Shown here: in pieces, positions 8,365 through 51,094 of the stretch | Position numbering within the stretch: position 1 is the first letter of the stretch | Layout: every line of letters begins with the position of its first letter | Virus record (IMG/VR): IMGVR_UViG_3300005882_000001 | Location: 1 to 59,397 of that record | DNA from: a virus | Strand: one strand, 5' to 3' | DNA: 59,397 nucleotides | Position numbers and translations under genes: made by a program | The notes under the pieces: generated by a model | Databases searched by the model: none | What the model was told of the DNA's origin: nothing | The model's input: the letters and a program-made list of their open reading frames with translations, nothing else

Positions 8365-8367
8365 TAC

Positions 8368-38073: not shown

Positions 38074-39764
38074 TATTCGATTTCCTCAAAAGTCTGCGCC
38101 AATGTAATGTCATAAACAATATTAGCAGTATCTATTTGATATTCCCATTCACACGCAAGGAAACCGCTCTGCAAATATTGTGCATATCGACTCGTTATTT
38201 GGATGGTTTGAGGATATTCATTGCCAAAAAAATCATACGCAGTAAGCGTCACTGTTACTGGGTAAGCATCCGCTGTTACCTGTATCAGTCCAAAATTAAT
38301 TTCCTGTGGCAATTTATGCCGACGTGATTTCCACTGAAGCGCTAACCGCGGGGCTTCGGGGTCAACCTTTACTAGTTCAAATTGGCCACTCGATGGAATG
38401 TCGCGAAGTAAATATAAACTATCACGTTTTGTGTCTGAATACCCACCGCAAATATCACCCCATTCAACCCACGACCAAGCGTTTTTGCCGCCGCGAATAT
38501 CGAAGATAAATCCGCCGAGGTTACAAAAGCCGACATAAGAGCCCTCAAAGTAATAGCCTTCGATACTTTCTGGCTCGAGTTCCAGCCATTCATCTTTTGT
38601 AAACAACTCTTCGGTAACTACGTTAACTGAAGTGCCGTTGACTACGCACATACCATCTGGTGATGCGTACATAATGGCGCCATCGACATTCACAATCGAG
38701 CGCTTTGAAACACAGGCTTGGTTTGAATTAAGCGGCGCGACTGTCATTGATGCTGGCGAATTGCCATAGGCAATATGCGGAGTGCCTGTTGTACCGATAA
38801 ACAGACCCTCGCCCATTACTGCGATACCAACAATGGTATATTTTTTTATCGCTGTTCGATAGTCGACCGGCCAAGCATGAAATACACCTTGTTCGGAAAA
38901 ACAAACTTCGTTGGCAGTGACCCCCGCTAAGAAGTTGTTTGGCATTGCCACAAGCGAGTGCAAAGGGCCGCCGATATTTATTGCTGTATTAGTATCGGGG
39001 GCTGGGTCCCAAGTAATTGATGGAATTTCTTCCCCCAAATCTTCACTATCGACATTGTCAACGAACGTCGTTGCGCCAAGTGGGGTTTCGCCAACGTATT
39101 GAAAAACACCGCCGGTCGTGCCTGAGTTAGTGCGATAGATTCGTTTTTTCGAAGCAGCGCCAAAATTAAAATCGCCGGTTGGTAGCGCAGGAAAAGATAG
39201 GCTGACATCCTGATGCTCAGGGTAATACTCCACCGTATTTGATGGTGAACATGGCTGTGACTCTCGCCCCCAGTCATCAACTAATGTATACACATAAGTC
39301 GAACGGATTAAATCAAGGTCACTAGTTTCTGCCCCGCCCGGCACAACACCTGTTACTGTTGCTACAACCCCATCCGGTGCAGTGGGTAAATTTAAATCAT
39401 ACCCAGGACCACCTGGGTATGGCGTATTTACGTCAATCATATCGTTGCGTAGTATCTTTGGGTTTGAGATACCATCGACAATAATCAAATACTTGAACGG
39501 GTCGTAGGCCAATGGCGCTTCGACAAAGTCAGTGTCGCGTAGCGAAAACAACCAATAAGTATCTTCGTATAAAAATACAGAACCTTTTATCGGGTTGTTT
39601 GAAATCAATGGCACATTGGTAGTAGTCAATGTAAGCCCATAAAAAGGCTCAAGTTGACGTCGGTCAAAACGCACATTCGTCGCAATTTGCGCCATAGTTT
39701 CTGGCAAATTACGTGGGTGGACTTTAGGTGCCACCCCGCTGAATTCTGTCTGTCGAATGCGCAT
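38073..39764 (-). CDS. Tail structural protein
   Basis: GGAAGGAA lies before the ATG at 39764; the track start at 39782 is TTG. 563 aa, lying between the giant virion protein and the fibres. Confidence 0.65.
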   Translation of the reverse strand: MRIRQTEFSGVAPKVHPRNLPETMAQIATNVRFDRRQLEPFYGLTLTTTNVPLISNNPIKGSVFLYEDTYWLFSLRDTDFVEAPLAYDPFKYLIIVDGISNPKILRNDMIDVNTPYPGGPGYDLNLPTAPDGVVATVTGVVPGGAETSDLDLIRSTYVYTLVDDWGRESQPCSPSNTVEYYPEHQDVSLSFPALPTGDFNFGAASKKRIYRTNSGTTGGVFQYVGETPLGATTFVDNVDSEDLGEEIPSITWDPAPDTNTAINIGGPLHSLVAMPNNFLAGVTANEVCFSEQGVFHAWPVDYRTAIKKYTIVGIAVMGEGLFIGTTGTPHIAYGNSPASMTVAPLNSNQACVSKRSIVNVDGAIMYASPDGMCVVNGTSVNVVTEELFTKDEWLELEPESIEGYYFEGSYVGFCNLGGFIFDIRGGKNAWSWVEWGDICGGYSDTKRDSLYLLRDIPSSGQFELVKVDPEAPRLALQWKSRRHKLPQEINFGLIQVTADAYPVTVTLTAYDFFGNEYPQTIQITSRYAQYLQSGFLACEWEYQIDTANIVYDITLAQTFEEIE

Positions 39765-39769
39765 GATAT

Positions 39770-42700
39770 TTATTCCTTCCAAAAATCATAATTGATTCCA
39801 AATATACTACCATTTAATTGATTATGCACTGGAATTCCACGCTTAACCCCCGCCGCGAAACCATCACTTAAGAATGTTTCCGCATGCCCAGCAGTTGGGC
39901 CAAGCAAACTAATCACTCCAGAATTACCGCGTTCGGTCGCATCAAACATGCCTTGGACTAAATTCAATGGCCCAAGTCCCCCGGCGCGGTCGAATAATTC
40001 ATAAGTGTAGCTTATCATATCCTCGTCGTCGGTCGGGTCTTCTTCGAAACCATATTTTATTGTTTCACGTAGACTTAACCCTAATGCAGCCAACGGTAAT
40101 AAGGATATGGAAGCCAACACAGTGGGGGCGGCGATTTCAAGTGGATTTCCAGTTTCAATTGCTCGAGAACGCATTTCACGATAGATACCACCCATAATAT
40201 TATGAGCAAACGCCCAGAAGAATGATTTTAATTGCCATACCAATTGGAAGCGCATATCGTTCGCCCATACCGGGCGTTGCCCTGCATCTGGACGCAATAC
40301 CGATTCCGTTACAAATTGGTCAAGCGCATCAAGCACTTTAACAATTGTTCTTGAATTTGGGTCTTTGGCCGACATGGATACCGGCTCGCCGAGTGATTCC
40401 CATAAGGCGACATCTGCGGCTTCAAGACCCAATTCACGTAAATAGCGTTCAGAACGTTTGTCACCGTTGCCTGCTTTGCGTGCATGTTCGCGGATAAAAT
40501 CTTTACCCATACCCATCGCAACAACTCGCGTCATCCGCGTGAATTGCTCAAGACCAGTAAAGCGGAAAAATGTTTCATTCCATTTTTGAACTTTCGGGTC
40601 CATGTACATTTCACCATACTGGCTTTGGATAATCGACACAATCGCGTCATGCTGCGCTAAGCCCATGATACGAGCTTGTTCCGCTAGCGTGTGGTACTGG
40701 CTAATATTCTTCAGCATATTTTTTACGTTCTTCGCAAAACTGCTAAAGTCTTTTGTCCGTACTAAGATATTACCGAAATCTGAAATACTAGCCGGTACAG
40801 CGAACAACAGCGTTGTGTAGTACTGAAGCGATACTAAATATTGCTGGAACTTCCGAGCCGTCGGGTTCATGTCGAGACCAGAACGACCAAGAATCGCATC
40901 CATCGCTTTACGCAATCGACGGCGGTCTTCTGGTTTATCCACAGACTCCATGACTTCTTCAAAGCGGCCCATCGGGTCCCAGAACTTAGGCGCTTCTGGT
41001 TTGTTATCCAGAAGTTTGCTTACTACATTTTCAAGAATTTTTATCTTGTTCTTGATGCGGCCTTTATCGCCGGCTTTCGCGTTTGCTAATTCTTTCTCTG
41101 CTGCTTTTACCGCATCCTTAGCACCCGCCAGGCTTTCTTCCCAGTCAGCTTTTTTCTTCTCGTATTTCTTTTTCAAGTCTTGCACGGTAGCAAAAAACTC
41201 TGGGTCAACATGACGGCCCTCAGCGCGGTCATTCATTAGTTTGTTGAATAACACATCAATAGCGCGGTAACCACCCATGCGTGATTCAAGCTCAGCACGT
41301 TTGGTGCCTTGTTTGATGTACTTGAACAAACGCGCGCTAGGTGCTTCCATAAACTGTTCAAGCTCACTATCTGGAATATCACGCAGCATCCGGCTATATT
41401 TCTGTGCCAATCCTACGGTTTGGATATTCGAGACAGCGAACGTGTGGTCAGCGTCCATACCATCGTTTTCAACAACATGTTTATAGAACGCTTCAATATA
41501 TTTATCCGCTTGTGCTTGAGTCAGTGGATTACCGTTTTTATCCTTTAGATATTTACGAATCAAATCGGTAAATTCTGCTTTGCCCTCAGCCGACATCAAC
41601 GTGTCCATTTTAAATACACGTGGTAAACGATACCCTGGTGTATTGCCCAAGCGCCCGCCCATACGAGAATTTAAATACGCCCAGAATTCGTCCATTTGTT
41701 TTTTAAACTCTGGATGAATTGTTTTTGGGTTAACTACATTGTCGACTAACCAAGCGTCCCAAGTTTTTGGGTCTTTCGGCAACAGTGAACTGAACACGTG
41801 TGTCCAACGTGCGCCCCAATGCTCTTTCGCATCTAAATAGCCTTGTTTGGCTGAGCGCTCTTCGCCGAGTTTTTCCCGCTTCACATAAGTCCAAGCCCGC
41901 GGCCCTTTGGTTTTTTCAAAACTTGGTGCTTTACTACCCGCCGGAATAGCACGCTCGGCTTTGAAGAAGTTGCCGTTGTGATAAACAATGTCGCCTTTGC
42001 CGTATGAATTTTTCGAGTTCCATACGCGTTTGATGGGGCGGTGCAAAACCTGGACGCTGGCGTCGTTAGATTGCGAACGTGTTTTTATTTGATTCGCAAA
42101 CTCATCGCCAACCAGGTTACGGAATTCAGTGTCAGTAAACCCGCCATAAGTATTAATGGTTTCGAAAAACTTAAACTTACCGTTACGGCGTTTTAACCGA
42201 TGCGCTTGTACTTTCATTTTACGCACAAGTTTATTGGCATCTGAAGCAAAACCCGCGCCTTGGCCGGTCATATTTTTATGCGTATCATAGCCAAAGTAAT
42301 GAGGCGCGCGAAACTTATTCTGTGCGATTACTGTACGCATGAACCGATTGAAACGGGCATTGGTGCGGAATCGCTCATTAAGCCCGTCGGTTAATGCATC
42401 GAACAATTCACGTAAGCGGGCGACCACACGCTCAAAAACAGGGTATGTTTTTTCCGCAAGACCGCCCGTGTCGGCTCTCTTAGATTTGTTTTCGATAAAC
42501 TGTTTAAATCTTTCCAGCTCACCCTCTTTTGCGAGGTTAAAGACAGGTACACCTTTGCGGGACGCCATATCTATTGCTTGGCCTGTACCACCCGTTTTTA
42601 TACTACGCTCGCTTGAAGTAGTTGCACCATCACGAGTCCAAGTCAATACAAAATCGACAGGGCTTTTTAAGTCACGTCCGAAGACTTGGTTAGTATTACG

Positions 42701-45700
42701 CGCCATTAAATCTAATGCGTATTGCTTTAGGTTTTTGCCGTTTGGGTGTATTTCTCTAGCTATGTTGCGTGTGACTTCCACAGCATCTTTTGCATAAAAT
42801 ATCTGCTTAGAGTTACCCGCGCCAGCTTCAAAGGCTGAATCTGCTCCTTTGGCACCACCCGAATTTAATGTATACCCTTTACCTGCTAAATACTCCGCAA
42901 TGCTTTTCATTGTTTCGAGTATTTCAGGTGGGGTGTTGCGGGAGCCTATTCCGGCGTAAACCATAGTATTTTGTCCGGCTTCGTATTCTGGAATACTATC
43001 AAAATCAGTAATTTTTGTATCCGCCATTTCCTCGTTTTTGGTTTTAGCGGGACCTACTTCTGCACTAGGGGCAACAGTTCCGGTTTCATCCACTATAAAT
43101 GCGCTCAGCTTATCTGCAAACCATTCTTCGAATTCTGCTTGGCTTAAATCTTGTTTACGCAATTCTTTCATTGCTTCTAAGCGCAAAGCACGAGATTCTG
43201 CTTGGCTCACGCTAGCCATGGTACGCGCATAGACATAGTGGCCGATTTCATGACCAAGTGCCATGGCACGATTAAATCGCGCCTGTTGGTTTGGCTTAGC
43301 CGAAGCAAACGGACGAAGCATAACTACGCCAAAGTCGCCCATTGGTACATAGGCCGCGTACGCGCCTTTGTTAATCGATTCCTGAGCTTCAAGCAGTAAT
43401 CGGAACCGGTAGTCTTTATGCACTCGGTTCGCAGGCACACCTAAGATTTTTGCGAACGCCCCGCGGAGTTCCGCCATATCTTTGGCAGATGAAGTCATCA
43501 CGTAGAAGTTAGAACCACTGCCAAGTACTTTTCGCACTTTGCCCATGATGGCTTTTTCTTCTTGGGTAATAGACGGTGTTGCAATTGTCTTATCCGACTT
43601 ACCGCCAAAAATTTGTTTCAGTTGTTTGAAACCAACTTCAAGTGTATTCGGAGTACGCTTATTCCCAGGAGCCTTTGAACCAACGCCGATGTCGGATTGG
43701 TTCTCATTCGCCTCGTCTATCATGCGTTTTTTGGCTTCGTCTTTTGCTTCGCGAGCAGCCGCCAAGTCGTCAAAATACTGTTGGAAGAAGTTCTCAGGGT
43801 TAGTATTTGAACTGAAATATTCAAACACGCCGTCGCGTTCCATCTGCAATAGTTGCTTCGGACTAAGCTGCGCCGCCCATAATTCCATAGGCAACGCCGG
43901 GCCCTCGGTGTTTTCAACATATGATAGATAAACATCTTCAACAGGCGAGTAAGCATCAGTTGGGTTATCAATCATGTCGAGTAACATGCGTCGACGCCCT
44001 TCGGTCGCTAAATCTAGTCGACTCAATCTACCAGCTTTTACTAATGGTGCTAAACGCTCAGCGACAATCGCTGCCTGGGCTGGGCTATCCTGCGCGGCTT
44101 TATGCAGGCGTTTATACATTTGTTCGATTGTTTCTTTAGTTGTGTCAAGCGCTGGTGCAAACTGCCCCATTGGGATTTGGCCTTTCAACCAAGACAGCCA
44201 TTCGAACGCCTGGCTTACCGCCGAACGTTTCACTTCACCAGTGATATCTACCGCAAATTTATTATTAACCAAGTCCGCATAGGTATAATCACGGTCAGGG
44301 GTTTTATAAATCACCGCGCTGTTTTTGTTTAAAAACTTGGCGTTGCCTTTAGCATCTTTGGTGATTTCCGTTGCCCCCATTAACTGCTGGCGTACGATAT
44401 CTGGGTTAGCAGAGTCTTCAACTAGAAGTTCATATACATAAGGGAACGTATCCAACATACGCTGGCGCAACGAAACTTGTTCGTTGTATGAATCACGATT
44501 AGCGTCAAGCAACATAGACAACAACTGATTCAAATTAACATGCGAGACTCCGCCGCGTTTGTTGGTGTAAACAAACAAACCAGAAATTGGCTCGCCTTTG
44601 CGGTTAGTTACAATAACCTGGCCCTCGTTGTCATATTCAACTTTTGCTGCTGGTATTGTGCCGCGTGCAGTTTGCCATGCGCGTTTAATTGCTTTACGAA
44701 GTGGCAAAGAACCAGCGGCATAATCCGCCGCCGTAAGTCCTTCGCTTTGTGCCTCTAGACGTTCGCTATCGGTTACATCCTCGTCGGCTTCATAATCAAT
44801 ATCGCTGTCCGTTTCTGAGTCTTCTTTTTTATAGCCTTTGGCTTCGTCTGCGGTACGTTTGCTCGAGACAATTTGCTCTCCACGCGTAGCGGCACTTGGC
44901 TCGATTACTTCAATAAAATAACCAGTGTCTTCATTACCGACAATTTCGAATTCAGTTAAATTAAACTCAGGTAGGCGGCCTAGCTCCGCAATAGCGGCGT
45001 TAGCAGTTTTCGCATCAGGAAACCCTTGTGACATTTTCTCTTCAAACTTGGAATCTTCCAAAGAAAACATGGCATCCTGCGCGGCTTTTGCATCGACATT
45101 ACCATTTGCGTCATGGAGCAGACCGCGTTTGTTTTCGCTGTTTGATAATTCACGATTGGCGTTCAAAATATTCATACCCAGGTATTTACGCTCTGGGTTT
45201 ATTGCTTCGCCATCGCTCGCCACATCGTCTGATTTTTCACTAACCGAAATTCGATAGGTTCCATCATCCAATTCAACTGGCTCAAAAATTTTCGATGGGT
45301 GAGCAGACGCCAATAGAGGAACAACATTATCCACTTGCTGTTTATTAAATGGCTTAGTTTTTTTAGCATCTTTGCTGGCGCTACGGTAGTTCACTCGATT
45401 ACCGCCGTCGATAAACAATAAATCAGGGCCAATGAATTCTGGCTCCTGTTGAGTTTCGATTGTCTTCGGCGTGCCGTCTTTGTTAACTCGTTGTGATAAT
45501 ACTTCTTGTGCTGTTTTACGTGAGCGCTCTTTCGCACTTGGTCCGAGTTTACGACGCTTCGCTATTACTTCTTCTGCGGTTTGTTCAGTCCACTCATGCA
45601 CCACCGGTTCTTGGCCGGTGCGCTCCCGTGCGGCGTTTTGTGCTGAAACTAATTGTTCTGGACCTTCGACAAGCACAGGAGAACCTTGCGCACCGGACTC

Positions 45701-47311
45701 GTCGACTGGAATAACCATGTGCGTTGGGTTCTCTGGTTTATTATCCACGCCATAGTTTTGCACTGCGCCGAGACCTCGTTCAGAAGCAAGCTGTTTTACT
45801 TCATCGACTTTATCTGGCGTAGTGACTAAAGAACCGCCGCGGGCAGATTCATCCTGAACACCTGGAATTGTATCAATACCCACTTCGACCATTTCGCCTG
45901 AGTACACAGCTTGTTGTAGTTCAAGCGGGAGTTGTTCTTCAGGTGAACGATAAAAGGCTTTTTGTTTACCGGCTTTCGTTGCTTTAACTGAAACAGAATT
46001 TTCTTCTTCGGTTACAGGTAGAGGCTTCTGGTTAGTAGCTAAATATTCGTCCGGTTGTGTAAAACCAGTTTTGCCTTCTAGTTGTTCCGGAGTAAGAACT
46101 AAATTAGGCTCAGCATTATGTTGCTGATTGCCAGCTAAGTATGGGTCTGGTTCTCTAAAACCGGTCTCGCCTTCCAACTGTTCCGGAGTAAGAACTAAAT
46201 TAGGTTCGGCGTTTCGCTGGTTCCCTGCCAAATATGGGTCAGGTTGTTCAAACCCACTAGTAGGCGTGGGTTCGGGTTGTAGGGGTGTGTCAACGGCTTC
46301 AGTAGAGTCGGCCACACCTGGTTCTGCGATATTTTCTTCATCGCTATATTCAAAGACAGGTTCTTCCGCGAAGCTTGTATCCGTAGCATCAGTTTTGTTT
46401 TTGAGATTTTCTTTAATAGCTTTATTTTGTTTTAGTGTTCTTGGAATCCCGCTAAGACCACCTAACGAACCACCGCCAAAATAAGCGCGAGTAGCACTGT
46501 TCCAGAATTTACTAAAAACTTCAGATTCTACAAGCTCTTCCCCAGTAAGCGCCGATATAGCAGTATCATCTAAAAGAGACTGCGCCCCTTCCGTCAAACC
46601 CTCAGCTAATCCCATAGAATTAAAGTCTTTTACTGCTTGCAGGGTAACACTTTTTGGTGTTTTAGGTAGATTGGCTGCTCCGCGTAATTTACCTGCTGGT
46701 TTTAATACAATATCGGATAGTTTATTTACCGGTAGGTATTCTAATCCGAGTTTACCAAGAGAAGTCGCGAGTACCGCCGCAGGGTCTTTAATATCACTAT
46801 CATTAAAACTTAGTTGCGTTTCACCAAGTAATTGAGGGGAACTTCCAGCCATCGCACCAGCGGACGAAGCTCGTTTTAGCGCAGATTTAGATAGCTGACT
46901 AGCAAGCGTTTTTCCAAAGGCGGCACGGGCCATAACGCCAGCGCCGCCAGAGCCTAGCATGGTTGCGGCTTGCGGTATAAATTCTGCGATGGATTCTAGG
47001 GCAAACGTACCTAGCTGTGCATAAGAATCAATATCTTCAAATTTTTGTATTGAAGCTGGGGCGAGCATTGCTTTGTTTAAATTATTCTCAACACCTTCCT
47101 GCGCCCATTCGCTAAGAGCCTCAGAACCAACTATATCTCCCAACCAATCAACAGAAGCATAAAGCATGGCGTCGAGGTTATCTTTACCTCTGGCGATGCC
47201 CTGCTCAAAATTACCACGGCCAGCGGCAGAATTTACATTCTGCCAATCTCCGAGTCGTGTACCGCTGATATCACCAGATTTTAATCGCTCGAGTCTGTCG
47301 TCTGTGGCCAT
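39770..47311 (-). CDS. Giant (2513 aa) multidomain virion/ejection ('polyvalent') protein
   Basis: A single uninterrupted ORF with an AAGGAAG RBS. It contains an HExxH motif (ALGHEIGHYV), a DprA/SLOG-like domain (YAGIGSRNTPP...LNSGGAKGADSAFEAGA), a CBM5/12-like motif, 29-aa tandem repeats and C-terminal hydrophobic segments. It lies within the structural module. Confidence 0.85.
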   Translation of the reverse strand: MATDDRLERLKSGDISGTRLGDWQNVNSAAGRGNFEQGIARGKDNLDAMLYASVDWLGDIVGSEALSEWAQEGVENNLNKAMLAPASIQKFEDIDSYAQLGTFALESIAEFIPQAATMLGSGGAGVMARAAFGKTLASQLSKSALKRASSAGAMAGSSPQLLGETQLSFNDSDIKDPAAVLATSLGKLGLEYLPVNKLSDIVLKPAGKLRGAANLPKTPKSVTLQAVKDFNSMGLAEGLTEGAQSLLDDTAISALTGEELVESEVFSKFWNSATRAYFGGGSLGGLSGIPRTLKQNKAIKENLKNKTDATDTSFAEEPVFEYSDEENIAEPGVADSTEAVDTPLQPEPTPTSGFEQPDPYLAGNQRNAEPNLVLTPEQLEGETGFREPDPYLAGNQQHNAEPNLVLTPEQLEGKTGFTQPDEYLATNQKPLPVTEEENSVSVKATKAGKQKAFYRSPEEQLPLELQQAVYSGEMVEVGIDTIPGVQDESARGGSLVTTPDKVDEVKQLASERGLGAVQNYGVDNKPENPTHMVIPVDESGAQGSPVLVEGPEQLVSAQNAARERTGQEPVVHEWTEQTAEEVIAKRRKLGPSAKERSRKTAQEVLSQRVNKDGTPKTIETQQEPEFIGPDLLFIDGGNRVNYRSASKDAKKTKPFNKQQVDNVVPLLASAHPSKIFEPVELDDGTYRISVSEKSDDVASDGEAINPERKYLGMNILNANRELSNSENKRGLLHDANGNVDAKAAQDAMFSLEDSKFEEKMSQGFPDAKTANAAIAELGRLPEFNLTEFEIVGNEDTGYFIEVIEPSAATRGEQIVSSKRTADEAKGYKKEDSETDSDIDYEADEDVTDSERLEAQSEGLTAADYAAGSLPLRKAIKRAWQTARGTIPAAKVEYDNEGQVIVTNRKGEPISGLFVYTNKRGGVSHVNLNQLLSMLLDANRDSYNEQVSLRQRMLDTFPYVYELLVEDSANPDIVRQQLMGATEITKDAKGNAKFLNKNSAVIYKTPDRDYTYADLVNNKFAVDITGEVKRSAVSQAFEWLSWLKGQIPMGQFAPALDTTKETIEQMYKRLHKAAQDSPAQAAIVAERLAPLVKAGRLSRLDLATEGRRRMLLDMIDNPTDAYSPVEDVYLSYVENTEGPALPMELWAAQLSPKQLLQMERDGVFEYFSSNTNPENFFQQYFDDLAAAREAKDEAKKRMIDEANENQSDIGVGSKAPGNKRTPNTLEVGFKQLKQIFGGKSDKTIATPSITQEEKAIMGKVRKVLGSGSNFYVMTSSAKDMAELRGAFAKILGVPANRVHKDYRFRLLLEAQESINKGAYAAYVPMGDFGVVMLRPFASAKPNQQARFNRAMALGHEIGHYVYARTMASVSQAESRALRLEAMKELRKQDLSQAEFEEWFADKLSAFIVDETGTVAPSAEVGPAKTKNEEMADTKITDFDSIPEYEAGQNTMVYAGIGSRNTPPEILETMKSIAEYLAGKGYTLNSGGAKGADSAFEAGAGNSKQIFYAKDAVEVTRNIAREIHPNGKNLKQYALDLMARNTNQVFGRDLKSPVDFVLTWTRDGATTSSERSIKTGGTGQAIDMASRKGVPVFNLAKEGELERFKQFIENKSKRADTGGLAEKTYPVFERVVARLRELFDALTDGLNERFRTNARFNRFMRTVIAQNKFRAPHYFGYDTHKNMTGQGAGFASDANKLVRKMKVQAHRLKRRNGKFKFFETINTYGGFTDTEFRNLVGDEFANQIKTRSQSNDASVQVLHRPIKRVWNSKNSYGKGDIVYHNGNFFKAERAIPAGSKAPSFEKTKGPRAWTYVKREKLGEERSAKQGYLDAKEHWGARWTHVFSSLLPKDPKTWDAWLVDNVVNPKTIHPEFKKQMDEFWAYLNSRMGGRLGNTPGYRLPRVFKMDTLMSAEGKAEFTDLIRKYLKDKNGNPLTQAQADKYIEAFYKHVVENDGMDADHTFAVSNIQTVGLAQKYSRMLRDIPDSELEQFMEAPSARLFKYIKQGTKRAELESRMGGYRAIDVLFNKLMNDRAEGRHVDPEFFATVQDLKKKYEKKKADWEESLAGAKDAVKAAEKELANAKAGDKGRIKNKIKILENVVSKLLDNKPEAPKFWDPMGRFEEVMESVDKPEDRRRLRKAMDAILGRSGLDMNPTARKFQQYLVSLQYYTTLLFAVPASISDFGNILVRTKDFSSFAKNVKNMLKNISQYHTLAEQARIMGLAQHDAIVSIIQSQYGEMYMDPKVQKWNETFFRFTGLEQFTRMTRVVAMGMGKDFIREHARKAGNGDKRSERYLRELGLEAADVALWESLGEPVSMSAKDPNSRTIVKVLDALDQFVTESVLRPDAGQRPVWANDMRFQLVWQLKSFFWAFAHNIMGGIYREMRSRAIETGNPLEIAAPTVLASISLLPLAALGLSLRETIKYGFEEDPTDDEDMISYTYELFDRAGGLGPLNLVQGMFDATERGNSGVISLLGPTAGHAETFLSDGFAAGVKRGIPVHNQLNGSIFGINYDFWKE
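46020..46260 (-). repeat. About 2.5 tandem copies of an 87-90-nt (29-30 aa) coding repeat inside the giant gene
   Basis: The protein reads GFEQPDPYLAGNQRNAEPNLVLTPEQLEGET / GFREPDPYLAGNQQHNAEPNLVLTPEQLEGKT / GFTQPDEYLATNQ. At the DNA level, tgttccggagtaagaactaaattagg is repeated at about 46082 and 46169. Confidence 0.9.
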
Positions 47312-47323: not shown

Positions 47324-49369
47324 TTAGCGCCCTTGTTTCATTTGTTCCAAGACGCGCTGAGTGTATTTATCAATAGATAACTTTTCGTTTTTCTGTTTAT
47401 GCCACTCTTCCGCAGAAGCGACAAAACCTAAAAGTGTTTTGTTTGGGTGGATACCATAATTCTTGTGCATTTCCGCAGCAAACGCAACTAATTGTTGCTG
47501 TTCTGATTCATCAACTAACCCGATAGTTCGGCCTACAGCATTTTTCAAACCAATAAACCCACCGAACATTTCGCGTACAATTGGTATATTGCCCAATGCT
47601 GAAGTATTAGCACGATGGGCCGCAGTCATTTCACTACCGTAACCCATACGTTTTAATTGTAATAATACATTACCAACAACAATGTCTTCTGTTGTTAAAT
47701 CTTCTTCAAAATAACCAGTAAAACTTTTATCATTTACGAGGTTAGTCATATGAACCATTTGAGTTAGGTCATTGGCATGTTTTGGGTCAAACAAATCGTA
47801 TGGTTTACCGTTTTTATCTACTACACCGTACCCACTTAATTGCTCCTGTGCTTCGATTAAGTCAGAATACATTTCGTTTGCATAGGATTCTATTTCTTCT
47901 TTAGTTAACTCAGAGCCTTTGCGTCCATCAGGAGTTACAAAGTTAGGGTTATTCACACCAATCATTACCGAATCTTTTACTAATTGCCGGCGTGATTTTT
48001 CGTTTGCCAATGCTTTTGCTTCATTATCGAGCCGCGCGCCTTGCAGCGCTGCGGCACGCTCCGCGTAGCTTTTCTCTGCCTCTGCATAATATTTTCTTGC
48101 TTGCGCTTGATTAGCTAATGACGCTGTTTTTTGCGTAGCAATTTTTGCTTCCAACTCATTCCGATAGCCGGTAGATACATATGTCTTGTACTCTTCTGGT
48201 GACCATAAACCAGCGCGCAACATAGGCAAACCGACTTGGGTACGGGTGTATTTTTTGACTTCTGGGCCGCGGCTAACAATTTCTTCTGCGCGTTGTTGCT
48301 GCTCAGAATTAATTGGGCCTTGTTTTTCCATCGCCTTTACTGGGTCCTTTACTGCTTCTTTTGCAGAAGTGCGCGGTATGCGAACCCCCGGCGTTGGGTC
48401 AGCCGCATCAGAAAATACCAACGGTTTTGTTGGCGCTTCGTTCTTATCAACCGGCTTTTCGTCATCAGTTGGTATATTATATGGTGGCGATATATTATCG
48501 CCAGTATACGCGCGAGTTCTGTAGGATGCTTCTGGTGTAGTTTTAAGCGCCGAAGCTACAAAATCTGATATACCCTGACCTAATGTTTTTTTGTTTCTAG
48601 GTTTATCATCATCTTCTGGCAAAATAACTAATGATGGGTCAACGGTTAATTCAGGCTTTTGCCGCACTGGTTGTTGTTCGGGAGCTGCGCCAAGAGGTGT
48701 TTGGCTAACCGTTGTATTACTACTCTGCACAGTAGTAGGTAAAACCTCAGCGTTTTCATTAGCCAACAACCTATTTTCGTACTCTTGCGAGGCGGCAATA
48801 TCTGTCGCCCCAAAGTTACCGCGGCTCGCAATCTGATTTACACGGGCGTTCACAAAGTCTGCGTCTTCTTTGCTGATTGGCATCAACGATGTGGTGCGAC
48901 GGCCACGTGCATCGGGCATAATAACACGTGCTTGTAATGAACCATCGGGCGCAGTAACTACGCCGCCGAAGAAACCATCAGTGCCTTCAGGTACACCAAC
49001 CATTTCATTGAACATGTTTTTGAGCGTTGGGTTAGTGTTAACCAAACTAGCAAACTGTACGTTTTGTTCGTCATTCAATGAAGTGATATCGAAGCCTTTG
49101 GTCATATCAATGCCGGTGCTTTCGAATAACTGCTGGATACCGTCGTGCTCGCGTCCGCGGGTTAGTAATTCGCGGTTCTGCTCATTCTGTAATTTAAGAC
49201 CGCCGGTTAATTCACGCTGATAATCATTCAGAACACCCTGGCGTTCGCGCTGTAACTCCATGGCTTCTTTTTCAAGCTTTAGGCGTTCTTGGTCAAAGTG
49301 AATCCCTTTCGCAAAAGAGAGTCCTTGCAAAAGCCCCGTCAAACCTGTGTCGAAATCCTGCGAGTACAT
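47324..49369 (-). CDS. Large internal virion or structural protein (681 aa)
   Basis: It lies immediately upstream of the giant gene. It has coiled-coil segments and a low-complexity middle. Confidence 0.65.
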   Translation of the reverse strand: MYSQDFDTGLTGLLQGLSFAKGIHFDQERLKLEKEAMELQRERQGVLNDYQRELTGGLKLQNEQNRELLTRGREHDGIQQLFESTGIDMTKGFDITSLNDEQNVQFASLVNTNPTLKNMFNEMVGVPEGTDGFFGGVVTAPDGSLQARVIMPDARGRRTTSLMPISKEDADFVNARVNQIASRGNFGATDIAASQEYENRLLANENAEVLPTTVQSSNTTVSQTPLGAAPEQQPVRQKPELTVDPSLVILPEDDDKPRNKKTLGQGISDFVASALKTTPEASYRTRAYTGDNISPPYNIPTDDEKPVDKNEAPTKPLVFSDAADPTPGVRIPRTSAKEAVKDPVKAMEKQGPINSEQQQRAEEIVSRGPEVKKYTRTQVGLPMLRAGLWSPEEYKTYVSTGYRNELEAKIATQKTASLANQAQARKYYAEAEKSYAERAAALQGARLDNEAKALANEKSRRQLVKDSVMIGVNNPNFVTPDGRKGSELTKEEIESYANEMYSDLIEAQEQLSGYGVVDKNGKPYDLFDPKHANDLTQMVHMTNLVNDKSFTGYFEEDLTTEDIVVGNVLLQLKRMGYGSEMTAAHRANTSALGNIPIVREMFGGFIGLKNAVGRTIGLVDESEQQQLVAFAAEMHKNYGIHPNKTLLGFVASAEEWHKQKNEKLSIDKYTQRVLEQMKQGR

Positions 49370-49379
49370 ATGCGTTCCT

Positions 49380-50087
49380 TTAAATTAAAAATGCCATCAG
49401 CGCGGCAGTGGCTAACCCTAAATTCTGATTACGCGCAGAAGCCGAAGCATTAGCATTCGCCATCTCACGACTGGCTTGCATGCCTGCCGCTTGGCTTAAG
49501 CCTTGCGACCCTTGTTGTGCGGCACCTAACGCTGTTGAAATTAATTCAGCGCGACGGTTTTGGTTCGTATCACGTTGCTGAATCCGAGCGTTATTTATCG
49601 CTGCATCTGATTCTTGTGCTGTAGTAAAACTGCCACGGCGTTCAAGCGCTTTGCGTTGCGCCGGCGTTAGGCTGGCTAATGAACGTGAAGCTTGGCGACC
49701 ACGAATTTCGCTCGTACGTTCGCCCATGCCTTCGATACGGTCTTGCGCGCCTTCAACAATATCCCGTGAGTTAGCTGACTCAATCATGTCGTCAATCAAC
49801 GGCTGGTACATATCTTGGTATGTACGCCAATCACGCATCGAGACATCCGACAGCGTTTGGTCTGGGTCGGTGACATTTCGCAACGTAGTTGCGCCGCGAA
49901 CACCTAAATCCATATCGTTAGGGCCACCGATAATCTGACGACCTGGTTCACCGCCTAAAAAAACCATGCCACCACGACGATACTGCGCCATTTTATTAAA
50001 ACCAGTACCCATCGGCGTGACTCGTTCGCCTTGCATGCGGTATGTTGTTGGTCGGGCTACACCCAACGGAAGCGCGTCTAGGCTCAT
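49380..50087 (-). CDS. Virion structural protein (putative)
   Basis: 235-aa ORF in the structural block. Confidence 0.6.
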   Translation of the reverse strand: MSLDALPLGVARPTTYRMQGERVTPMGTGFNKMAQYRRGGMVFLGGEPGRQIIGGPNDMDLGVRGATTLRNVTDPDQTLSDVSMRDWRTYQDMYQPLIDDMIESANSRDIVEGAQDRIEGMGERTSEIRGRQASRSLASLTPAQRKALERRGSFTTAQESDAAINNARIQQRDTNQNRRAELISTALGAAQQGSQGLSQAAGMQASREMANANASASARNQNLGLATAALMAFLI

Positions 50088-50659
50088 TATGTTGGTACTC
50101 CCAATTTATTCGGGCTGTTTGCCGCGGCATCAACAACTTCGTCGTCGGCAAAAATACCTAAATCATTTTTATAAGCATAGCTTAAACCGCCGGCGAGTGT
50201 CCCGCCAGCTTGCATTAAAGCACCGCGTTTTGCCATATCGCGTTGGACTTTGTCCTGCGCTTTTTTGTTAGCAATATCCGCTAAACTGGCCATGCTGTTT
50301 TGCGCAGTTGCCGATAAGCCTTTACCGGTTCGAAGCGCACGGTTAATAGATTGACCGCGATGTTCTTTCGCTTGCGTAGTACCTTCAATCATCGCCACGT
50401 TACGCGCGTTTTCAAGCGTATCGACAGTCGCCAGGGACTTAAACGGGCTGGCGCGGTTAGTCGGTATTTGGCGCGCCATAATAGCTTGGTCCGCAGAAAT
50501 TTGTCCGAGTACTTCGCGCGTTCGGTCGCGCTTTGATTCATTAACAAAATCTTTACCAATCTTGCCTTGGATATACTGCGATTCGCGCGAGGTAGCGTCC
50601 GCGATGCGAGCGAGCGTACTTTCGTGTACCGATTTTTCTGCTTTAGGTGCACTTGACAT
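50087..50659 (-). CDS. Virion structural protein (putative)
   Basis: 190-aa ORF. ATGA-type overlap with the downstream gene. Confidence 0.6.
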   Translation of the reverse strand: MSSAPKAEKSVHESTLARIADATSRESQYIQGKIGKDFVNESKRDRTREVLGQISADQAIMARQIPTNRASPFKSLATVDTLENARNVAMIEGTTQAKEHRGQSINRALRTGKGLSATAQNSMASLADIANKKAQDKVQRDMAKRGALMQAGGTLAGGLSYAYKNDLGIFADDEVVDAAANSPNKLGVPT

Positions 50660-51094
50660 TTATTTTACCTCTCGCACAAATGTTACCGACAACGCTGGGA
50701 AAAACTTAAATTTTGCTAAGCGCCGATTCCAAGCGTCTGCGCGTTTCGTTCCAAACTTAATATTAATCGCATTTAATCGTTTTGCCAATGAATCTAAATA
50801 ATCTATGGCTAATTCTAAATCAGCACGACTTAACCGAGTTCGGGCATACGCAATCCATACAAATAGGCTTAGGTTATCATTCAGGTCGTACTCTTCAGTT
50901 AATAACATAAACCCAATTGTTTTGCCGCTTTTTTTCGCCACAACAACCACCGCGGCGTGTTCTAGTAATTTGGCCTCGATATGGTGCCAGTTATGTTGTT
51001 CTTTCGAACGACGGCTAAAGTCTACTAACCAATCTCGATGGGTAACCAAGAACTCCAAAGACCGCTCTGGGGTTAACATGTTATAGGTTACCAT
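50660..51094 (-). CDS. Hypothetical protein with a weak GNAT-like pattern
   Basis: The pattern is AAVVVVAKKSGKTIGFMLL followed by VWIAYARTRLSRADLELAIDYLDSLAKRL. No canonical R/QxxGxG/A motif is present. Confidence 0.55.
   Translation of the reverse strand: MVTYNMLTPERSLEFLVTHRDWLVDFSRRSKEQHNWHHIEAKLLEHAAVVVVAKKSGKTIGFMLLTEEYDLNDNLSLFVWIAYARTRLSRADLELAIDYLDSLAKRLNAINIKFGTKRADAWNRRLAKFKFFPALSVTFVREVK

What the first reader, a model, noticed from the sequence alone, without database searches (positions are those of the whole stretch)
39770..47311. 2513-aa multidomain virion protein at the position of the N4 virion RNA polymerase, with no recognisable RNAP motifs
This single ORF covers 7.5 kb, about 13 percent of the genome, in the structural block downstream of capsid-proximal virion genes and upstream of the tail genes. 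In N4-like phages, as I recall their gene order, that position holds the giant virion RNA polymerase. By eye I find no T7-like RNAP motifs. What I do find is an HExxH metallopeptidase motif, a DprA/SLOG-like nucleotide-binding domain, a CBM5/12-like motif, tandem repeats, acidic linkers and C-terminal hydrophobic helices (IAAPTVLASISLLPLAALGLSL). This mosaic fits the 'polyvalent protein' concept, meaning ejected multi-effector proteins. The genome also has no other RNAP gene and shows sigma70-like promoter elements, so early transcription probably uses host RNAP. A cryptic, highly divergent polymerase domain cannot be excluded by eye.
Basis: partly seen in the sequence, partly recalled or inferred. 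Interest (0 to 1): 0.75.

Follow-up and report, generated by a model that had tools for sequence, protein, structure and literature searches.

The report
Giant cargo-carrying phage ejection protein
This 2513-residue gene most likely encodes the largest of a short-tailed phage's injected ("ejection") proteins, a conserved two-ended delivery scaffold with about 1,500 residues of extra domains in its middle, and it is not a hidden RNA polymerase.

Summary
The ORF is real: 39770-47311, minus strand, 2513 aa, 278 kDa.

- **Genome:** a closed 59.3-kb podovirus genome related to Pseudomonas phage KPP25 and Aeromonas phage phiA008. It is not an N4-like phage.
- **What the protein is:** its N-terminal ~300 aa and C-terminal ~430-660 aa are homologous to the ~1,000-aa virion protein of LUZ24/PaP3/tf-type phages. 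Profile E-values against tf gp51 are 3.5e-23 and 3.3e-44. [quoted passage not shown]
- **Cargo between the two modules (~1,500 aa):**
  - an ORFan stretch with almost no homologue among 1.84 billion proteins;
  - a gluzincin peptidase (HEIGH...EEWFAD);
  - a DprA-like SLOG domain (phrog_768, E 1e-46);
  - a weak CBM5/12-like hairpin.
- **RNA polymerase:** no polymerase signal in sequence, profile or predicted-fold searches, and no RNAP gene elsewhere in the genome.
- **N4 link:** gene order and sizes (235, 681, 2513 aa) mirror N4 gp52, gp51, gp50. A relative's N-domain weakly hits the N4 vRNAP N-terminus (E 2e-6).
- **Family trait:** these proteins are essentially cysteine-free, like N4 vRNAPs.

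This is a new member of a known, poorly characterised kind.

The parts
39770..47311 (-). Whole gene: 2513-aa (278.5 kDa, pI 5.7), cysteine-free giant ejection/polyvalent protein
   Evidence: identical protein on two JGI contigs
46361..47248 (-). N-terminal conserved module (residues ~22-317). It holds Gly/Ala-rich amphipathic segments and the LAEGLTEGAQ motif. It is shared by all 17 giant relatives, phiA008 gp66 and tf gp51.
   Evidence: jackhmmer; family HMM against tf gp51 E 3.5e-23; BLASTP E 0.001; weak link to the N4 vRNAP N-terminal domain
45992..46258 (-). Acidic, proline-rich linker with 2.5 tandem 32-aa repeats (residues ~352-440)
   Evidence: (family D7)
43592..45991 (-). ORFan cargo region (residues 441-1240). 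Small domains are separated by low-confidence or acidic linkers. Confidently modelled beads lie at residues 529-589 and 649-689. No polymerase fold was found.
   Evidence: exhaustive phmmer gave only one weak hit, to residues 445-569; no tblastn hit in phages; AF2; Foldseek
43085..43567 (-). Zincin-like (gluzincin) metallopeptidase, residues ~1249-1409. HEIGH at 1354-1358 (nt 43238-43252); third zinc ligand probably E1396 in FEEWFAD.
   Evidence: invariant G1325, H1354, E1355, G1357, H1358, F1394, E1396, W1397, D1400; pLDDT 80-89; top PDB fold hits are anthrax lethal factor, E 0.08-0.3
42476..42967 (-). DprA-like SLOG (Rossmannoid nucleotide/ssDNA-binding) domain, residues 1449-1612, with GSR...SGGAKGAD motifs
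   Evidence: phrog_768 E 1.1e-46; 37-47% identity to stand-alone phage proteins; PsyrA E 4.8e-5; Pfam and TIGR DprA below cut-off
41957..42022 (-). CBM5/12-like beta-hairpin (residues 1764-1785), weak
   Evidence: Pfam E 0.012, below cut-off; the only beta element in AF2 model 1; short local Foldseek hits to Agrobacterium phage fibre proteins, probability 0.94-0.99
39773..41764 (-). C-terminal conserved all-helical module. The core is residues 2080-2513; the family consensus extends upstream to ~1850. It includes the motif RFVxESVLxPNxAQRPxWANDP.
   Evidence: phrog_6958, phrog_30152 and phrog_35479; family HMM against tf gp51 E 3.3e-44 and KPP25 ORF088 E 1e-94; AF2
40070..40135 (-). Strongly hydrophobic, family-conserved helix (residues 2393-2414), followed by a RE(E/T)IK motif. 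Candidate membrane-spanning segment.
   Evidence: KD 1.86; conserved hydrophobic stretch in relatives
47324..49369 (-). Upstream 681-aa cysteine-free protein with no family hit. Candidate periplasmic-tunnel ejection partner (T7 gp15 / N4 gp51 / Pa223 gp54 position). Inferred from position and size only.
   Evidence: N4 and Pa223 gene order
49380..50087 (-). 235-aa cysteine-free, Q/N/A/S-rich protein with a hydrophobic C-terminus. Candidate small ejection partner (T7 gp14-like position). Inferred only.
38073..39782 (-). Downstream ~563-569-aa virion protein. Related to PDB 8jov chain A (six chains in that entry), so more likely a tail hub/nozzle component than an internal protein.
   Evidence: phrog_511; PDB phmmer E 6e-44; JGI gene call of 563 aa

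Best explanation
The gene encodes the largest ejection (internal virion) protein of a KPP25/phiA008-related podovirus. It is the functional counterpart of T7 gp16, Bruynoghevirus gp53 and N4 gp50.

**Shown here**
- Its N-terminal ~300 aa and C-terminal ~430-660 aa form a conserved 'chassis'.
- This chassis is homologous to the ~1,000-aa chassis-only virion protein of LUZ24/PaP3/tf-type phages, and to the two ends of 17 other giant proteins of 1,880-4,190 aa.
- The ~1,500 aa between the two modules are lineage-specific cargo.

**Inferred mechanism**
- A few copies are packaged in the capsid as loosely folded beads on a string.
- After the small and the 681-aa ejection proteins have opened the envelope, the giant protein is threaded through the tail.
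- The Gly-rich N-module and the hydrophobic C-terminal helix anchor it at the inner membrane.
- The cargo reaches the cytoplasm together with the DNA end.
- There the HExxH...E gluzincin may cut the polypeptide into separate effectors.
- The DprA-like SLOG domain binds ssDNA or a nucleotide signal. This would protect the entering genome or blunt a defence, either a PRTase/DprA-type toxin-antitoxin system (ShosTA, PsyrTA) or NAD-derived signalling.
- The protein carries no RNA polymerase, so early transcription must rely on the host enzyme.
For: - **Chassis homology:** the family N-term HMM against tf gp51 gives E 3.5e-23 and the C-term HMM gives E 3.3e-44. tf gp51 has no peptidase. phrog_6958, a 1,052-position profile, covers both ends. 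BLASTP gives E 0.001.
- **Virion and ejection role of homologues:** Pa223 gp53 (1,055 aa) was found in virions by LC-MS and assigned as the gp16-like inner-membrane component. KPP25 ORF088 is deposited as a virion structural protein, and the family C-term HMM hits it at E 1e-94.
- **Synteny and sizes** match N4 gp52, gp51, gp50 and Pa223 gp56, gp54, gp53.
- **Variable middle across the family:** relatives carry SNase, a 3'-5' exonuclease or an endonuclease. In P0002 the DprA-like domain sits on the other side of the peptidase.
- **Peptidase:** the catalytic motif is invariant, the region is confidently modelled, and the top fold hits are anthrax lethal factor. That is the same zincin that Iyer et al. 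matched for the N4 gp50 peptidase.
- **SLOG domain:** phrog_768 E 1e-46. In N4-like Stenotrophomonas phages the same domain is encoded within the first 1-2 kb of the genome.
- **Cysteines:** 0 in 2513 aa, against 0.71% in the other window proteins. Thirteen relatives checked and phiA008 gp66 hold 0 to 3 each, and eight N4-like vRNAPs hold 0 in 3,300-3,800 aa each.
- **No RNAP anywhere in the genome**.
Against: - No proteomics or ejection data exist for this protein. Packaging is inferred from homologues.
- The Pa223 assignment of gp53 is itself bioinformatic plus mass spectrometry, and that Pa223 gp53 equals tf gp51/LUZ24 gp50 rests on size, synteny and annotation rather than a direct alignment here.
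- The 681-aa and 235-aa neighbours show no detectable similarity to any known ejection protein, nor to the equal-sized phiA008 neighbour.
- Both AF2 models are poor (mean pLDDT 55-56). About 670 residues therefore remain structurally uninterpreted, and the lethal-factor fold hits are not significant on their own (E >= 0.08).
- Only one strongly hydrophobic segment is predicted.
- Which compartment the cargo reaches, whether the peptidase self-cleaves, and what the SLOG domain binds are all untested.
- A CBM-like hairpin would fit a periplasmic rather than a cytoplasmic role for part of the protein.
Confidence: 0.72

Rival explanations
1. A cryptic, highly divergent virion RNA polymerase (N4-like single-subunit or crAss-like two-barrel) is hidden in the unannotated parts. 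The phage would then inject its own transcriptase.
For: - The protein sits at the same gene position as N4 gp50 and has a comparable size class.
- It has a zincin peptidase, as N4 gp50 does.
- About 670 residues (570-1240) have no homologue and are poorly modelled.
- The genome has no other RNAP.
Against: - Pfam, PHROG and NCBIfam give no RNAP hit even at E <= 1.
- An HMM built from eight N4-like vRNAPs finds nothing in the protein (E 5.5).
- There is no DxDGD, NADFDGD or T7 motif A/B/C.
- The unannotated space is broken by acidic linkers into small beads. The longest uninterrupted part is well under the ~1,100 aa of the N4 polymerase domain.
- Residues 1615-2513 are predicted almost entirely alpha-helical.
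- No polymerase appears among the PDB fold hits. The single 'RdRp' hit in BFVD has TM 0.09 and rmsd 34 A and is noise.
- Chassis-only relatives such as tf gp51 and Pa223 gp53 work without any polymerase, and tf uses host sigma70 promoters.
- None of the 16 relatives scanned has an RNAP domain.
Confidence: 0.03
2. A fixed structural virion component that is not ejected. Examples would be an internal core or scaffold-like body, or a tail-associated cell-wall-degrading protein. The enzyme-like domains would then act on the envelope from outside or in the periplasm.
For: - PHROG labels the C-terminal families only as 'virion structural protein'.
- A CBM5/12-like hairpin resembles elements of phage fibre proteins.
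- One Bruynoghevirus homologue is annotated 'structural protein with peptidoglycan transglycosylase'.
- The gene lies next to tail hub and fibre genes.
Against: - No lysozyme, transglycosylase, M15 or M23 domain is detected.
- The peptidase is of the protein-cleaving zincin (lethal factor-like) type rather than a peptidoglycan peptidase.
- A DprA-like SLOG domain has no obvious substrate outside the cytoplasm.
- The Pa223 homologue is present by mass spectrometry but invisible in the ordered capsid and tail density, as expected of a disordered internal ejection protein.
- The cysteine-free, linker-rich, beads-on-a-string make-up matches N4 gp50.
Confidence: 0.12
3. The long ORF is an annotation or assembly artefact, for example several genes fused by sequencing errors.
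For: The protein is unusually long. The middle has no homologues.
Against: - The identical 2513-aa product is called on two independent contigs.
- The N- and C-terminal family modules lie at the two ends of one frame, exactly as in 17 relatives of 1,880-4,190 aa and in cultured phages KPP25, phiR18 and phiA008.
- The other five frames hold only short ORFs across the region.
Confidence: 0.01

Closest known systems
Bruynoghevirus/Krylovvirus ~1,000-aa virion protein (Pa223 gp53, LUZ24 gp50, PaP3 orf19, tf gp51; phrog_6958), proposed T7 gp16-like inner-membrane ejection protein
   Same: - Homologous N-terminal and C-terminal modules (E 3.5e-23 and 3.3e-44).
- Cysteine-free.
- Encoded directly after a ~500-700-aa cysteine-free gene in the virion module.
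- Found in virions by mass spectrometry in Pa223.
   Different: - These proteins are chassis only, with about 300 aa between the two modules and no peptidase or SLOG domain.
- The window protein has about 1,500 aa more, inserted between the modules.
- Pairwise identity is only about 21-24%.
Giant virion structural proteins of KPP25/phiR18 (Kochitakasuvirus, ~2,009-2,107 aa) and Aeromonas phage phiA008 gp66 (2,050 aa); phrog_30152
   Same: - Closest cultured phages by capsid protein (48-52% identity).
- Same gene position. phiA008 also has a 681-aa gene just upstream.
- Shared C-terminal module (34% identity to phiA008; HMM E 1e-94 to KPP25).
- Shared N-module and an HExxH in phiA008 gp66.
   Different: - Only the ends align, about 14% of the query.
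- The middle parts are unrelated.
- phiA008 gp66 carries an endonuclease-like N-terminal domain instead.
- None of these has the DprA-like domain.
N4 gp50 and other Schitoviridae virion RNA polymerases
   Same: - Largest and last gene of a small, medium, giant ejection-protein triplet.
- An internal zincin HExxH peptidase.
- Zero cysteines.
- Flexible beads-on-a-string build and a membrane-binding N-terminal domain.
- Weak sequence link between N-terminal domains: P0016 against phrog_2206 E 2.2e-6, hhalign P 4.4e-4, and the Pa223 authors note the same.
   Different: - No RNA polymerase domain.
- No similarity to the N4 C-terminal domain (hhalign E 0.1).
- No direct BLAST or HMM similarity of this protein to gp50.
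- The phage is not a schitovirus.
Polyvalent proteins of phages and conjugative elements (Iyer, Burroughs, Anand, de Souza, Aravind 2017, PMC5512222)
   Same: - Very large multidomain protein encoded among virion genes.
- The zincin-like peptidase is the hub domain.
- Relatives carry nucleases.
- Predicted delivery with the DNA and early action.
   Different: - A DprA/SLOG domain is not discussed as a polyvalent-protein domain in that paper's main text (0 mentions of SLOG, 1 passing mention of DprA).
- None of the classic partners (ART, SNF2-methylase, MuF, ArdC-N) is detected here.
- Most of the cargo is ORFan.
Stand-alone phage DprA-like/SLOG proteins (phrog_768) and the DprA-like antitoxins ShosA and PsyrA
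   Same: - 37-47% identity to ~170-aa phage proteins of T4-like, N4-like and jumbo phages.
- GSR...SGGAxGxD signature.
- Weak match to PsyrA (E 4.8e-5).
   Different: - Here the domain is fused inside a virion protein, whereas viral SLOG domains are 'typically standalone' (PMC9503650).
- It lacks the SAM and winged-helix domains of true DprA and scores below the DprA family cut-offs.

Membership tests
Bruynoghevirus gp53-type / phrog_6958-30152 ejection-protein family | Conserved N-terminal module (~300 aa, Gly-rich, xEGxTExxQ motif) | tested here: met
   Present in all 17 giants and phiA008. Family HMM against tf gp51 E 3.5e-23. BLASTP E 0.001.
Bruynoghevirus gp53-type / phrog_6958-30152 ejection-protein family | Conserved C-terminal helical module with a hydrophobic helix | tested here: met
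   phrog_6958 E 2e-24 and phrog_30152 E 8e-20. Family HMM against tf gp51 E 3.3e-44 and KPP25 ORF088 E 1e-94.
Bruynoghevirus gp53-type / phrog_6958-30152 ejection-protein family | Gene lies in the virion module directly after a mid-sized (500-900 aa) cysteine-free gene | tested here: met
   Window 681 aa, phiA008 681 aa, P0002 contig 886 aa, tf 487 aa; all have 0 Cys. The mid-sized proteins themselves are not detectably homologous.
Bruynoghevirus gp53-type / phrog_6958-30152 ejection-protein family | Physically present in virions and expelled on infection | not testable with these tools
   Known only for homologues: Pa223 gp53 by LC-MS, and the KPP25 ORF088 annotation.
Polyvalent proteins (Iyer et al. 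2017) | Two or more distinct globular effector-type domains in one large polypeptide, encoded with packaging or virion genes | tested here: met
   Peptidase, SLOG domain and at least two further modelled small domains, located between the capsid and tail genes.
Polyvalent proteins (Iyer et al. 2017) | Zincin-like metallopeptidase: beta-sheet, HExxH helix and a downstream Glu helix | tested here: met
   HEIGH and EEWFAD are invariant. AF2 gives strands, then the 1342-1365 helix, then the 1391-1410 helix, at pLDDT 80-89. Lethal factor is the top PDB hit but at E 0.08, so the fold match alone is weak.
N4-like virion RNA polymerase (phrog_2206) | T7-like single-subunit RNA polymerase domain (~1,100 aa) | tested here: not met
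   No Pfam or PHROG hit. A vRNAP HMM gives E 5.5. No motifs. No polymerase among fold hits.
N4-like virion RNA polymerase (phrog_2206) | Homologous N-terminal (membrane/injection) domain | tested here: inconclusive
   The relative P0016 (residues 264-662) hits phrog_2206 positions 227-582 at E 2.2e-6. hhalign of the family against the N4-like N-terminal domain gives P 4.4e-4 with reversed controls at 0.6. However, jackhmmer and direct searches are negative.
N4-like virion RNA polymerase (phrog_2206) | Homologous C-terminal (encapsidation/autoinhibition) domain | tested here: not met
   hhalign E 0.1-0.13. hmmsearch scores about 2 bits.
DprA/Smf (PF02481, TIGR00732) | Score above the curated family cut-off; DprA Rossmann domain with its partner domains | tested here: not met
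   Pfam 18.4 bits against 29.6, and TIGR00732 14.5 bits against 191. PDB DprA E 0.7. The domain belongs to the phage DprA-like family phrog_768 (E 1e-46), not to DprA proper.
CBM5/12 carbohydrate-binding module (PF02839) | Score above the Pfam gathering cut-off | tested here: not met
   16.1 bits against 26.2, covering only 22 of 44 profile positions. A beta-hairpin is modelled at low confidence.
Two-barrel (crAss gp66 / YonO-like) RNA polymerase | Double-psi beta-barrels with a DxDGD metal-binding motif | tested here: not met
   No DxDGD. The only DxDxD is DSDID inside an acidic linker. No barrel-type fold hits.

The most novel reading that the evidence does not exclude
The N- and C-terminal modules could be a general, exchangeable protein-delivery chassis of podoviruses, shared by Bruynoghevirus gp53, the KPP25/phiA008 giants and, at its N-terminal end, N4 vRNAP. 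Arbitrary cargo would be inserted into this chassis. On that reading, N4's injected polymerase is one cargo variant of this lineage. The window protein would be another, delivering a so far unreported pre-made anti-defence payload. That payload would be a DprA-like SLOG domain that neutralises PRTase/DprA-type abortive-infection systems or NAD-derived immune signals before any phage gene is transcribed, plus about 670 aa of entirely new effector domains released by the built-in peptidase.
Probability: 0.25. Interest if true: 0.65.

Novelty: new member of a known kind. Interest (0 to 1): 0.42.

Why it matters
**The N4 question.** How N4-type phages came to inject a 3,500-residue polymerase is an open question. 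This protein and its relatives show the same delivery position, the same cysteine-free, linker-rich build and an internal zincin peptidase. They span chassis-only (~1,000 aa) versions up to proteins of more than 4,000 aa, and their cargo swaps freely: nucleases, a DprA-like domain, ORFan domains. That makes the "ejection protein as cargo carrier" idea directly testable in culturable relatives (KPP25, phiA008, LUZ24-type phages).

**Leads for function.**
- A SLOG/DprA-like domain is nominated as a candidate virion-delivered anti-defence factor.
- About 670 residues with almost no homologue among 1.84 billion representative proteins are flagged as a source of new effector folds.

**Practical use.** The chassis could in principle be exploited to deliver engineered proteins into Gram-negative cells.

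**Limits.** As an individual finding it is a well-explained member of a known class, not a new kind of system.

Tried and rejected
1. **Direct comparison with N4 gp50.** BLASTP, family HMMs against gp50, a vRNAP HMM against the giants and jackhmmer from P0016 were all negative or far from significant. Only profile-level hints remain.
2. **Word-indexed homologue searches on segments.** Searches with residues 438-1202 (plain letters) and 1615-2130 returned nothing, not even the query's own protein. I treat them as uninformative rather than as evidence of absence. The exhaustive search covered 440-1440 only. Residues 1615-2080 were checked only by tblastn against phages and by family alignment.
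3. **Structure prediction.** Both AF2 models have mean pLDDT of 55-56.
   - Foldseek against PDB gave no hit with E < 0.08.
   - The BFVD hits, including an 'RdRp' at E 1e-4, have TM <= 0.1 and rmsd of 30-70 A. I rejected them as matches between disordered models.
   - Weak macrodomain hits (E 1.3, probability 0.1) were noted but not accepted.
4. **Sequence search of PDB.** Nothing was found for the whole protein, the 681-aa neighbour, or the 235-aa and 190-aa neighbours.
5. **IMG/VR scans.** A scan with the C-terminal module found no relative. The family alignment was too divergent to build search patterns.
6. **Sigma70 promoter support for host-RNAP dependence.** Matches were not enriched over shuffles. 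A repeat search over the whole genome turned up paralogous small-gene arrays but no obvious phage-specific promoter consensus.
7. **Tape-measure or lysin reading.** No such domain was found.


Full report
**1. The observation**

The window holds one uninterrupted ORF on the minus strand, 39770-47311, ATG-started, 2513 aa. An AGGAAG ribosome-binding site lies 7 nt upstream of the ATG. The ATG follows the stop codon of the preceding 681-aa gene by 12 nt, so the two genes are probably translationally coupled.

The same 2513-aa product is recorded on two metagenomic contigs. A perfect 99-nt repeat at both ends of the window shows that the contig is a closed circle of 59,298 bp.

- a single HExxH motif (HEIGH, residues 1354-1358);
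- a GSR...SGGAKGAD Rossmann-type domain;
- a W..Y.KGD.VYHNG.F hairpin;
- two and a half 32-aa tandem repeats (DNA 46028-46213, 96-nt period);
- acidic linkers;
- one strongly hydrophobic C-terminal helix.

The protein is 278.5 kDa, has a pI of 5.7 and contains no cysteine.

**2. Genome context**

PHROG, Pfam and PDB-sequence searches give the following minus-strand late module:

| Coordinates | Product |
|---|---|
| 57395-59203 | large terminase |
| 55165-57366 | portal |
| 54081-55172 | 363-aa protein |
| 52683-53813 | major capsid protein |
| 51694-52401 | SU10-type adaptor |
| 49380-51687 | four small proteins |
| 47324-49369 | 681-aa protein with no family hit |
| 39770-47311 | the giant gene |
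| 38073-39782 | ~565-aa protein matching PDB 8jov chain A (E 6e-44; six chains in that entry) |
| 35236-38073 | 945-aa tail fibre |

The plus strand carries DNA polymerase, primase, helicase, exonuclease and many small early genes.

The capsid protein is 52% identical to Pseudomonas phages KPP25 and phiR18 (Kochitakasuvirus), 48% to Aeromonas phage phiA008 and 46% to Acidovorax phage AP1. The phage belongs to that loose group of ~55-65-kb podoviruses. It is not a member of the N4-like Schitoviridae.

No RNA polymerase or sigma domain was found in any other ORF of 80 aa or more.

**3. What the protein is related to**

tblastn against 50,697 phage genomes finds no full-length relative. Only two parts hit:
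- the DprA-like segment (residues ~1430-1612) matches hundreds of phages;
- the last ~370 residues match phiA008, KPP25-type and LUZ24/tf-type podoviruses.

In phiA008 the match lies at the end of a 2,050-aa gene that follows a 681-aa gene, as in the window. In KPP25 and phiR18 it is the end of a ~2,009-2,107-aa 'virion structural protein'.

The large protein database returned 12 relatives, and the exhaustive search returned 4 more. All are giants of 1,880-4,190 aa. Local profile searches show that all of them share two things with the query:
- an N-terminal module of ~300 aa;
- a C-terminal module of ~400 aa. The family consensus extends this to ~660 aa.

Most also carry one HE[ILVF]GH...EWFAD peptidase.

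Everything else differs between relatives:
- Pfam finds staphylococcal-nuclease domains in three and a 3'-5' exonuclease in one.
- phiA008 and P0016 carry an endonuclease-like N-terminal domain.
- P0002 carries the same DprA-like domain, but on the other side of its peptidase.

**4. The chassis**

phrog_6958 is a 1,052-position profile that matches the N-module with its first third and the C-module with its last third. Its cultured members are the ~1,000-aa virion proteins of LUZ24/PaP3/tf-type phages.

Pseudomonas phage tf gp51 (1,021 aa) matches the family N-term HMM at E 3.5e-23 (residues 52-298) and the C-term HMM at E 3.3e-44 (residues 612-980). It has no peptidase and no cysteine. Pairwise BLASTP of the N-module gives E 0.001 over 262 collinear residues.

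In tf the gene order is gp54 (312 aa), gp53, gp52 (487 aa), gp51 (1,021 aa). The cryo-EM and mass-spectrometry study of the Bruynoghevirus Pa223 (bioRxiv 10.1101/2025.06.11.659172) describes the same arrangement:
- gp56 (313 aa), assigned as the outer-membrane channel;
- gp54 (505 aa), seen around the portal and assigned as the periplasmic tunnel;

All three were detected in virions by LC-MS. gp53 is invisible in the ordered density.

That Pa223 gp53 corresponds to tf gp51, LUZ24 gp50 and PaP3 orf19 is inferred from size, order and annotation. I did not align Pa223 itself.

The window protein is therefore best described as this two-ended ejection-protein chassis with about 1,500 extra residues inserted between the ends.

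**5. Relation to N4**

N4's late module reads MCP, gp55, gp54, gp53, gp52 (150 aa), gp51 (644 aa), gp50 (3,500 aa). The window reads MCP, adaptor, small proteins, 235 aa, 681 aa, 2513 aa. The 2026 N4 study (PMC13434306) reports the following:
- gp52, gp51 and gp50 are the three ejection proteins;
- the gp50 N-terminal domain binds membranes (predicted helices at 224-278);
- gp50 is a flexible beads-on-a-string protein that has to pass a ~35 A channel.

Iyer et al. 2017 (PMC5512222) showed that gp50 carries a zincin HExxH peptidase after the polymerase. They also showed that this peptidase is the commonest hub of 'polyvalent proteins'.

Tests for homology gave mixed results:
- BLASTP and HMM-to-sequence comparisons with gp50 are negative.
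- Profile-profile comparison of the family N-module with eight N4-like N-terminal domains gives P 4.4e-4. It aligns LxEGxTEGxQ...Gly-rich with N4 residues 386-438. Reversed-sequence controls give 0.6.
- The N-domain of relative P0016 hits the N4 vRNAP PHROG at positions 227-582 with E 2.2e-6.
- The Pa223 authors independently note 'limited similarity' of gp53 with the N-terminus of N4 vRNAP.
- jackhmmer does not bridge the two families.
- The C-terminal domains show no similarity.

I therefore regard a common origin of the N-terminal membrane module as plausible but unproven. The rest of the resemblance I treat as functional analogy.

**6. Cysteines**

- The giant protein has 0 cysteines in 2513 residues. 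The other 23 window proteins examined average 0.71% (P about 2e-8 at that frequency). Against the cysteine-poor structural module alone (0.13%) the excess is only marginal.
- Across the family the pattern is consistent. P0001-P0011 and phiA008 gp66 have 0, and the two >4,000-aa members P0012 and P0013 have 3 each. P0014-P0017 were not counted.
- tf gp51, gp52 and gp54 have 0. The mid-sized upstream proteins have 0. N4 gp50, gp51 and gp52 have 0.
- All eight N4-like vRNAPs fetched have 0 in 3,332-3,785 residues.
- Neighbouring tail proteins do contain cysteines.

A cysteine-free make-up fits proteins that cross the oxidising periplasm partly unfolded. That explanation is my inference.

**7. The cargo, domain by domain**

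(a) *Residues ~330-440.* Acidic, proline-rich linker with the 32-aa repeats.

(b) *Residues 441-1240.* An exhaustive phmmer search of 1.84 billion representatives with residues 440-1440 found only the protein itself, three relatives that match the peptidase, and one weak hit (E 1.8e-4) to residues 445-569. tblastn against phages found nothing.
- AF2 models two small domains confidently: residues 529-589 (alpha/beta) and 649-689 (beta-beta-alpha-beta-beta).
- The rest is helices and strands of low confidence, interrupted by disordered acidic stretches.

(c) *Residues ~1249-1409, the peptidase.*
- Nine residues are invariant, including H1354, E1355, H1358 and E1396.
- The model shows strands followed by the HExxH helix and a Glu-bearing helix, at pLDDT 80-89.
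- The top PDB fold hits are anthrax lethal factor entries (E 0.08-0.3, probability up to 0.54). These are not significant alone, but lethal factor is the same zincin that Iyer et al. matched for the N4 peptidase.

(d) *Residues 1449-1612, the DprA-like SLOG domain.*
- phrog_768 E 1.1e-46.
- Pfam and TIGR DprA models score below their cut-offs.
- PDB DprA and LOG-like proteins score only E ~0.6-0.8.
- The PADLOC model of the DprA-like antitoxin PsyrA scores E 4.8e-5.

(e) *Residues 1615-1850.* Basic helical region containing the CBM5/12-like hairpin. Pfam gives E 0.012, below the cut-off. Short local Foldseek matches go to Agrobacterium phage fibre proteins.

(f) *Residues ~1850-2513.* The helical C-module with the hydrophobic helix at 2393-2414.

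**8. Is there a hidden polymerase?**

- No profile library reports one even at E <= 1.
- An HMM built from eight vRNAPs scores nothing.
- The metal-binding and T7 motifs are absent.
- Residues 1615-2513 are predicted almost wholly alpha-helical.
- The uninterpreted part (about 570-1240) is split by linkers into pieces far shorter than any known RNAP core.
- No PDB fold hit is a polymerase.
- The BFVD 'RdRp' hit has TM 0.09 and rmsd 34 A and is noise from aligning disordered models.
- Chassis-only relatives show that the family works without a polymerase. The tf authors map host sigma70 promoters in that genome.

The models are poor, so this is strong but not absolute exclusion. I put the probability at about 3%.

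Dependence on host RNAP follows instead from the absence of any phage RNAP gene.

**9. How it most likely works**

Shown:
- family membership;
- domain layout;
- intact catalytic motif of the peptidase;
- synteny.

Inferred from homologues and from published work on T7, N4, DEV and Pa223:
- A few copies are packaged inside the capsid.
- On adsorption the small and mid-sized partners are expelled first. The candidates are the 235-aa and 681-aa cysteine-free proteins, identified by position and size only; they have no detectable homologue in PDB or in phiA008.
- The giant follows as a string of small domains.
- Its N-module and C-terminal hydrophobic helix hold it at the inner membrane.

Speculative:
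- The peptidase releases the cargo domains, as Iyer et al. propose for polyvalent proteins.
- The SLOG domain acts at the very start of infection.

Two readings of the SLOG domain are open:
- *DprA-like.* It binds ssDNA or interacts with RecA, and so could stand in for the labile DprA-like antitoxins ShosA and PsyrA, which restrain PRTase toxins (PMC12961424).
- *SLOG-type.* It binds or cleaves NAD-derived immune signals, as predicted for viral SLOG domains, which are otherwise 'typically standalone' (PMC9503650).

In N4-like Stenotrophomonas phages the homologous gene lies within the first 1-2 kb of the genome. If those genomes are laid out like N4, whose early genes lie at the left end, that position fits a need for the domain at the earliest stage. 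Here the domain would arrive ready-made.

**10. Verdict**

The protein is an inner-membrane-type ejection protein of the phrog_6958/phrog_30152 family with inserted cargo.

It is a new member of a known but barely characterised kind. Three things lift it above routine:
- the clean chassis-plus-cargo series from ~1,000 to more than 4,000 aa;
- the possible shared N-terminal module with N4 vRNAP;
- a SLOG/DprA-like domain and ~670 ORFan residues as virion-delivered cargo.

Interest is moderate.

Noticed in passing
window 1-99 and 59299-59397: A perfect 99-nt direct repeat lies at the two ends of the window. The contig is therefore a circularly closed (or terminally redundant) complete genome of 59,298 bp (family D6).
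   Followed up: partly
window ~4300-8400 and ~11700-12250: Arrays of paralogous small early genes (~80-100 aa each) have conserved 3' ends and junctions, for example ...TTCTTAATGAACGACGACTAA, repeated 4-6 times at 235-560-nt spacing (families D1-D5 and D8). Function unknown.
   Followed up: no
window 38073-39782 (-): PHROG calls this ~565-aa protein an 'internal virion protein' (phrog_511). It matches PDB 8jov chain A, 'virion-associated phage protein' (six chains in that entry), at E 6e-44. It also contains 7 cysteines, unlike the putative ejection proteins. It is more likely a hexameric tail hub or nozzle part.
   Followed up: partly
N4-like vRNAPs in L004, L007-L013; tf gp51, gp52, gp54 in L014; window 47324-51687: Known and putative ejection proteins are cysteine-free across unrelated podovirus groups. 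Eight vRNAPs of 3,332-3,785 aa have 0 Cys, as do N4 gp51 and gp52, tf gp51, gp52 and gp54, and five consecutive window proteins. Adjacent tail proteins do have cysteines. This could serve as a simple predictor of ejected proteins.
   Followed up: partly
window 15891-16919 (+) and 16978-18228 (+): An ATPase (phrog_1297) is followed by a protein that PHROG names 'HNH endonuclease'. Pfam identifies the second protein as DUF2201_N putative metallopeptidase plus a VWA-like DUF2201 domain (E 6e-38 and 4e-21). The PHROG name looks wrong.
   Followed up: no
window 47324-49369 (-) and L001 4997-7042: The genes just upstream of the giant gene in the window and in phiA008 both encode exactly 681 aa. They show no BLASTP similarity at E < 0.01. 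This is either extreme divergence under a length constraint or coincidence.
   Followed up: partly
window 1-2600: The first ~2.6 kb have few convincing ORFs. They contain two long terminator-like hairpins with 15-bp stems, at 1195-1232 and 2176-2210 (+), the latter followed by a T-run. This could be a non-coding or regulatory early region.
   Followed up: no
window 20151-23021 (+): The 956-aa DNA polymerase matches polymerase PHROGs in two separate stretches (residues 5-427 and 764-956). An unrelated PHROG of unknown function matches residues 446-492, which suggests an inserted segment in the polymerase.
   Followed up: no
window residues ~500-700 of the giant protein (nt ~45200-45800): Foldseek gave a cluster of weak hits to alphavirus macrodomains (E 1.3-2, ~75 columns, probability ~0.1). 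These are not significant. Even so, SLOG and macro domains are reported to co-occur in phages, so the region deserves a better model.
   Followed up: no
tool behaviour: Word-indexed homologue searches with internal segments of the protein returned no hit at all, not even the protein itself, which the full-length query had found. Negative results from that tool on sub-segments should not be read as absence of homologues.
   Followed up: yes
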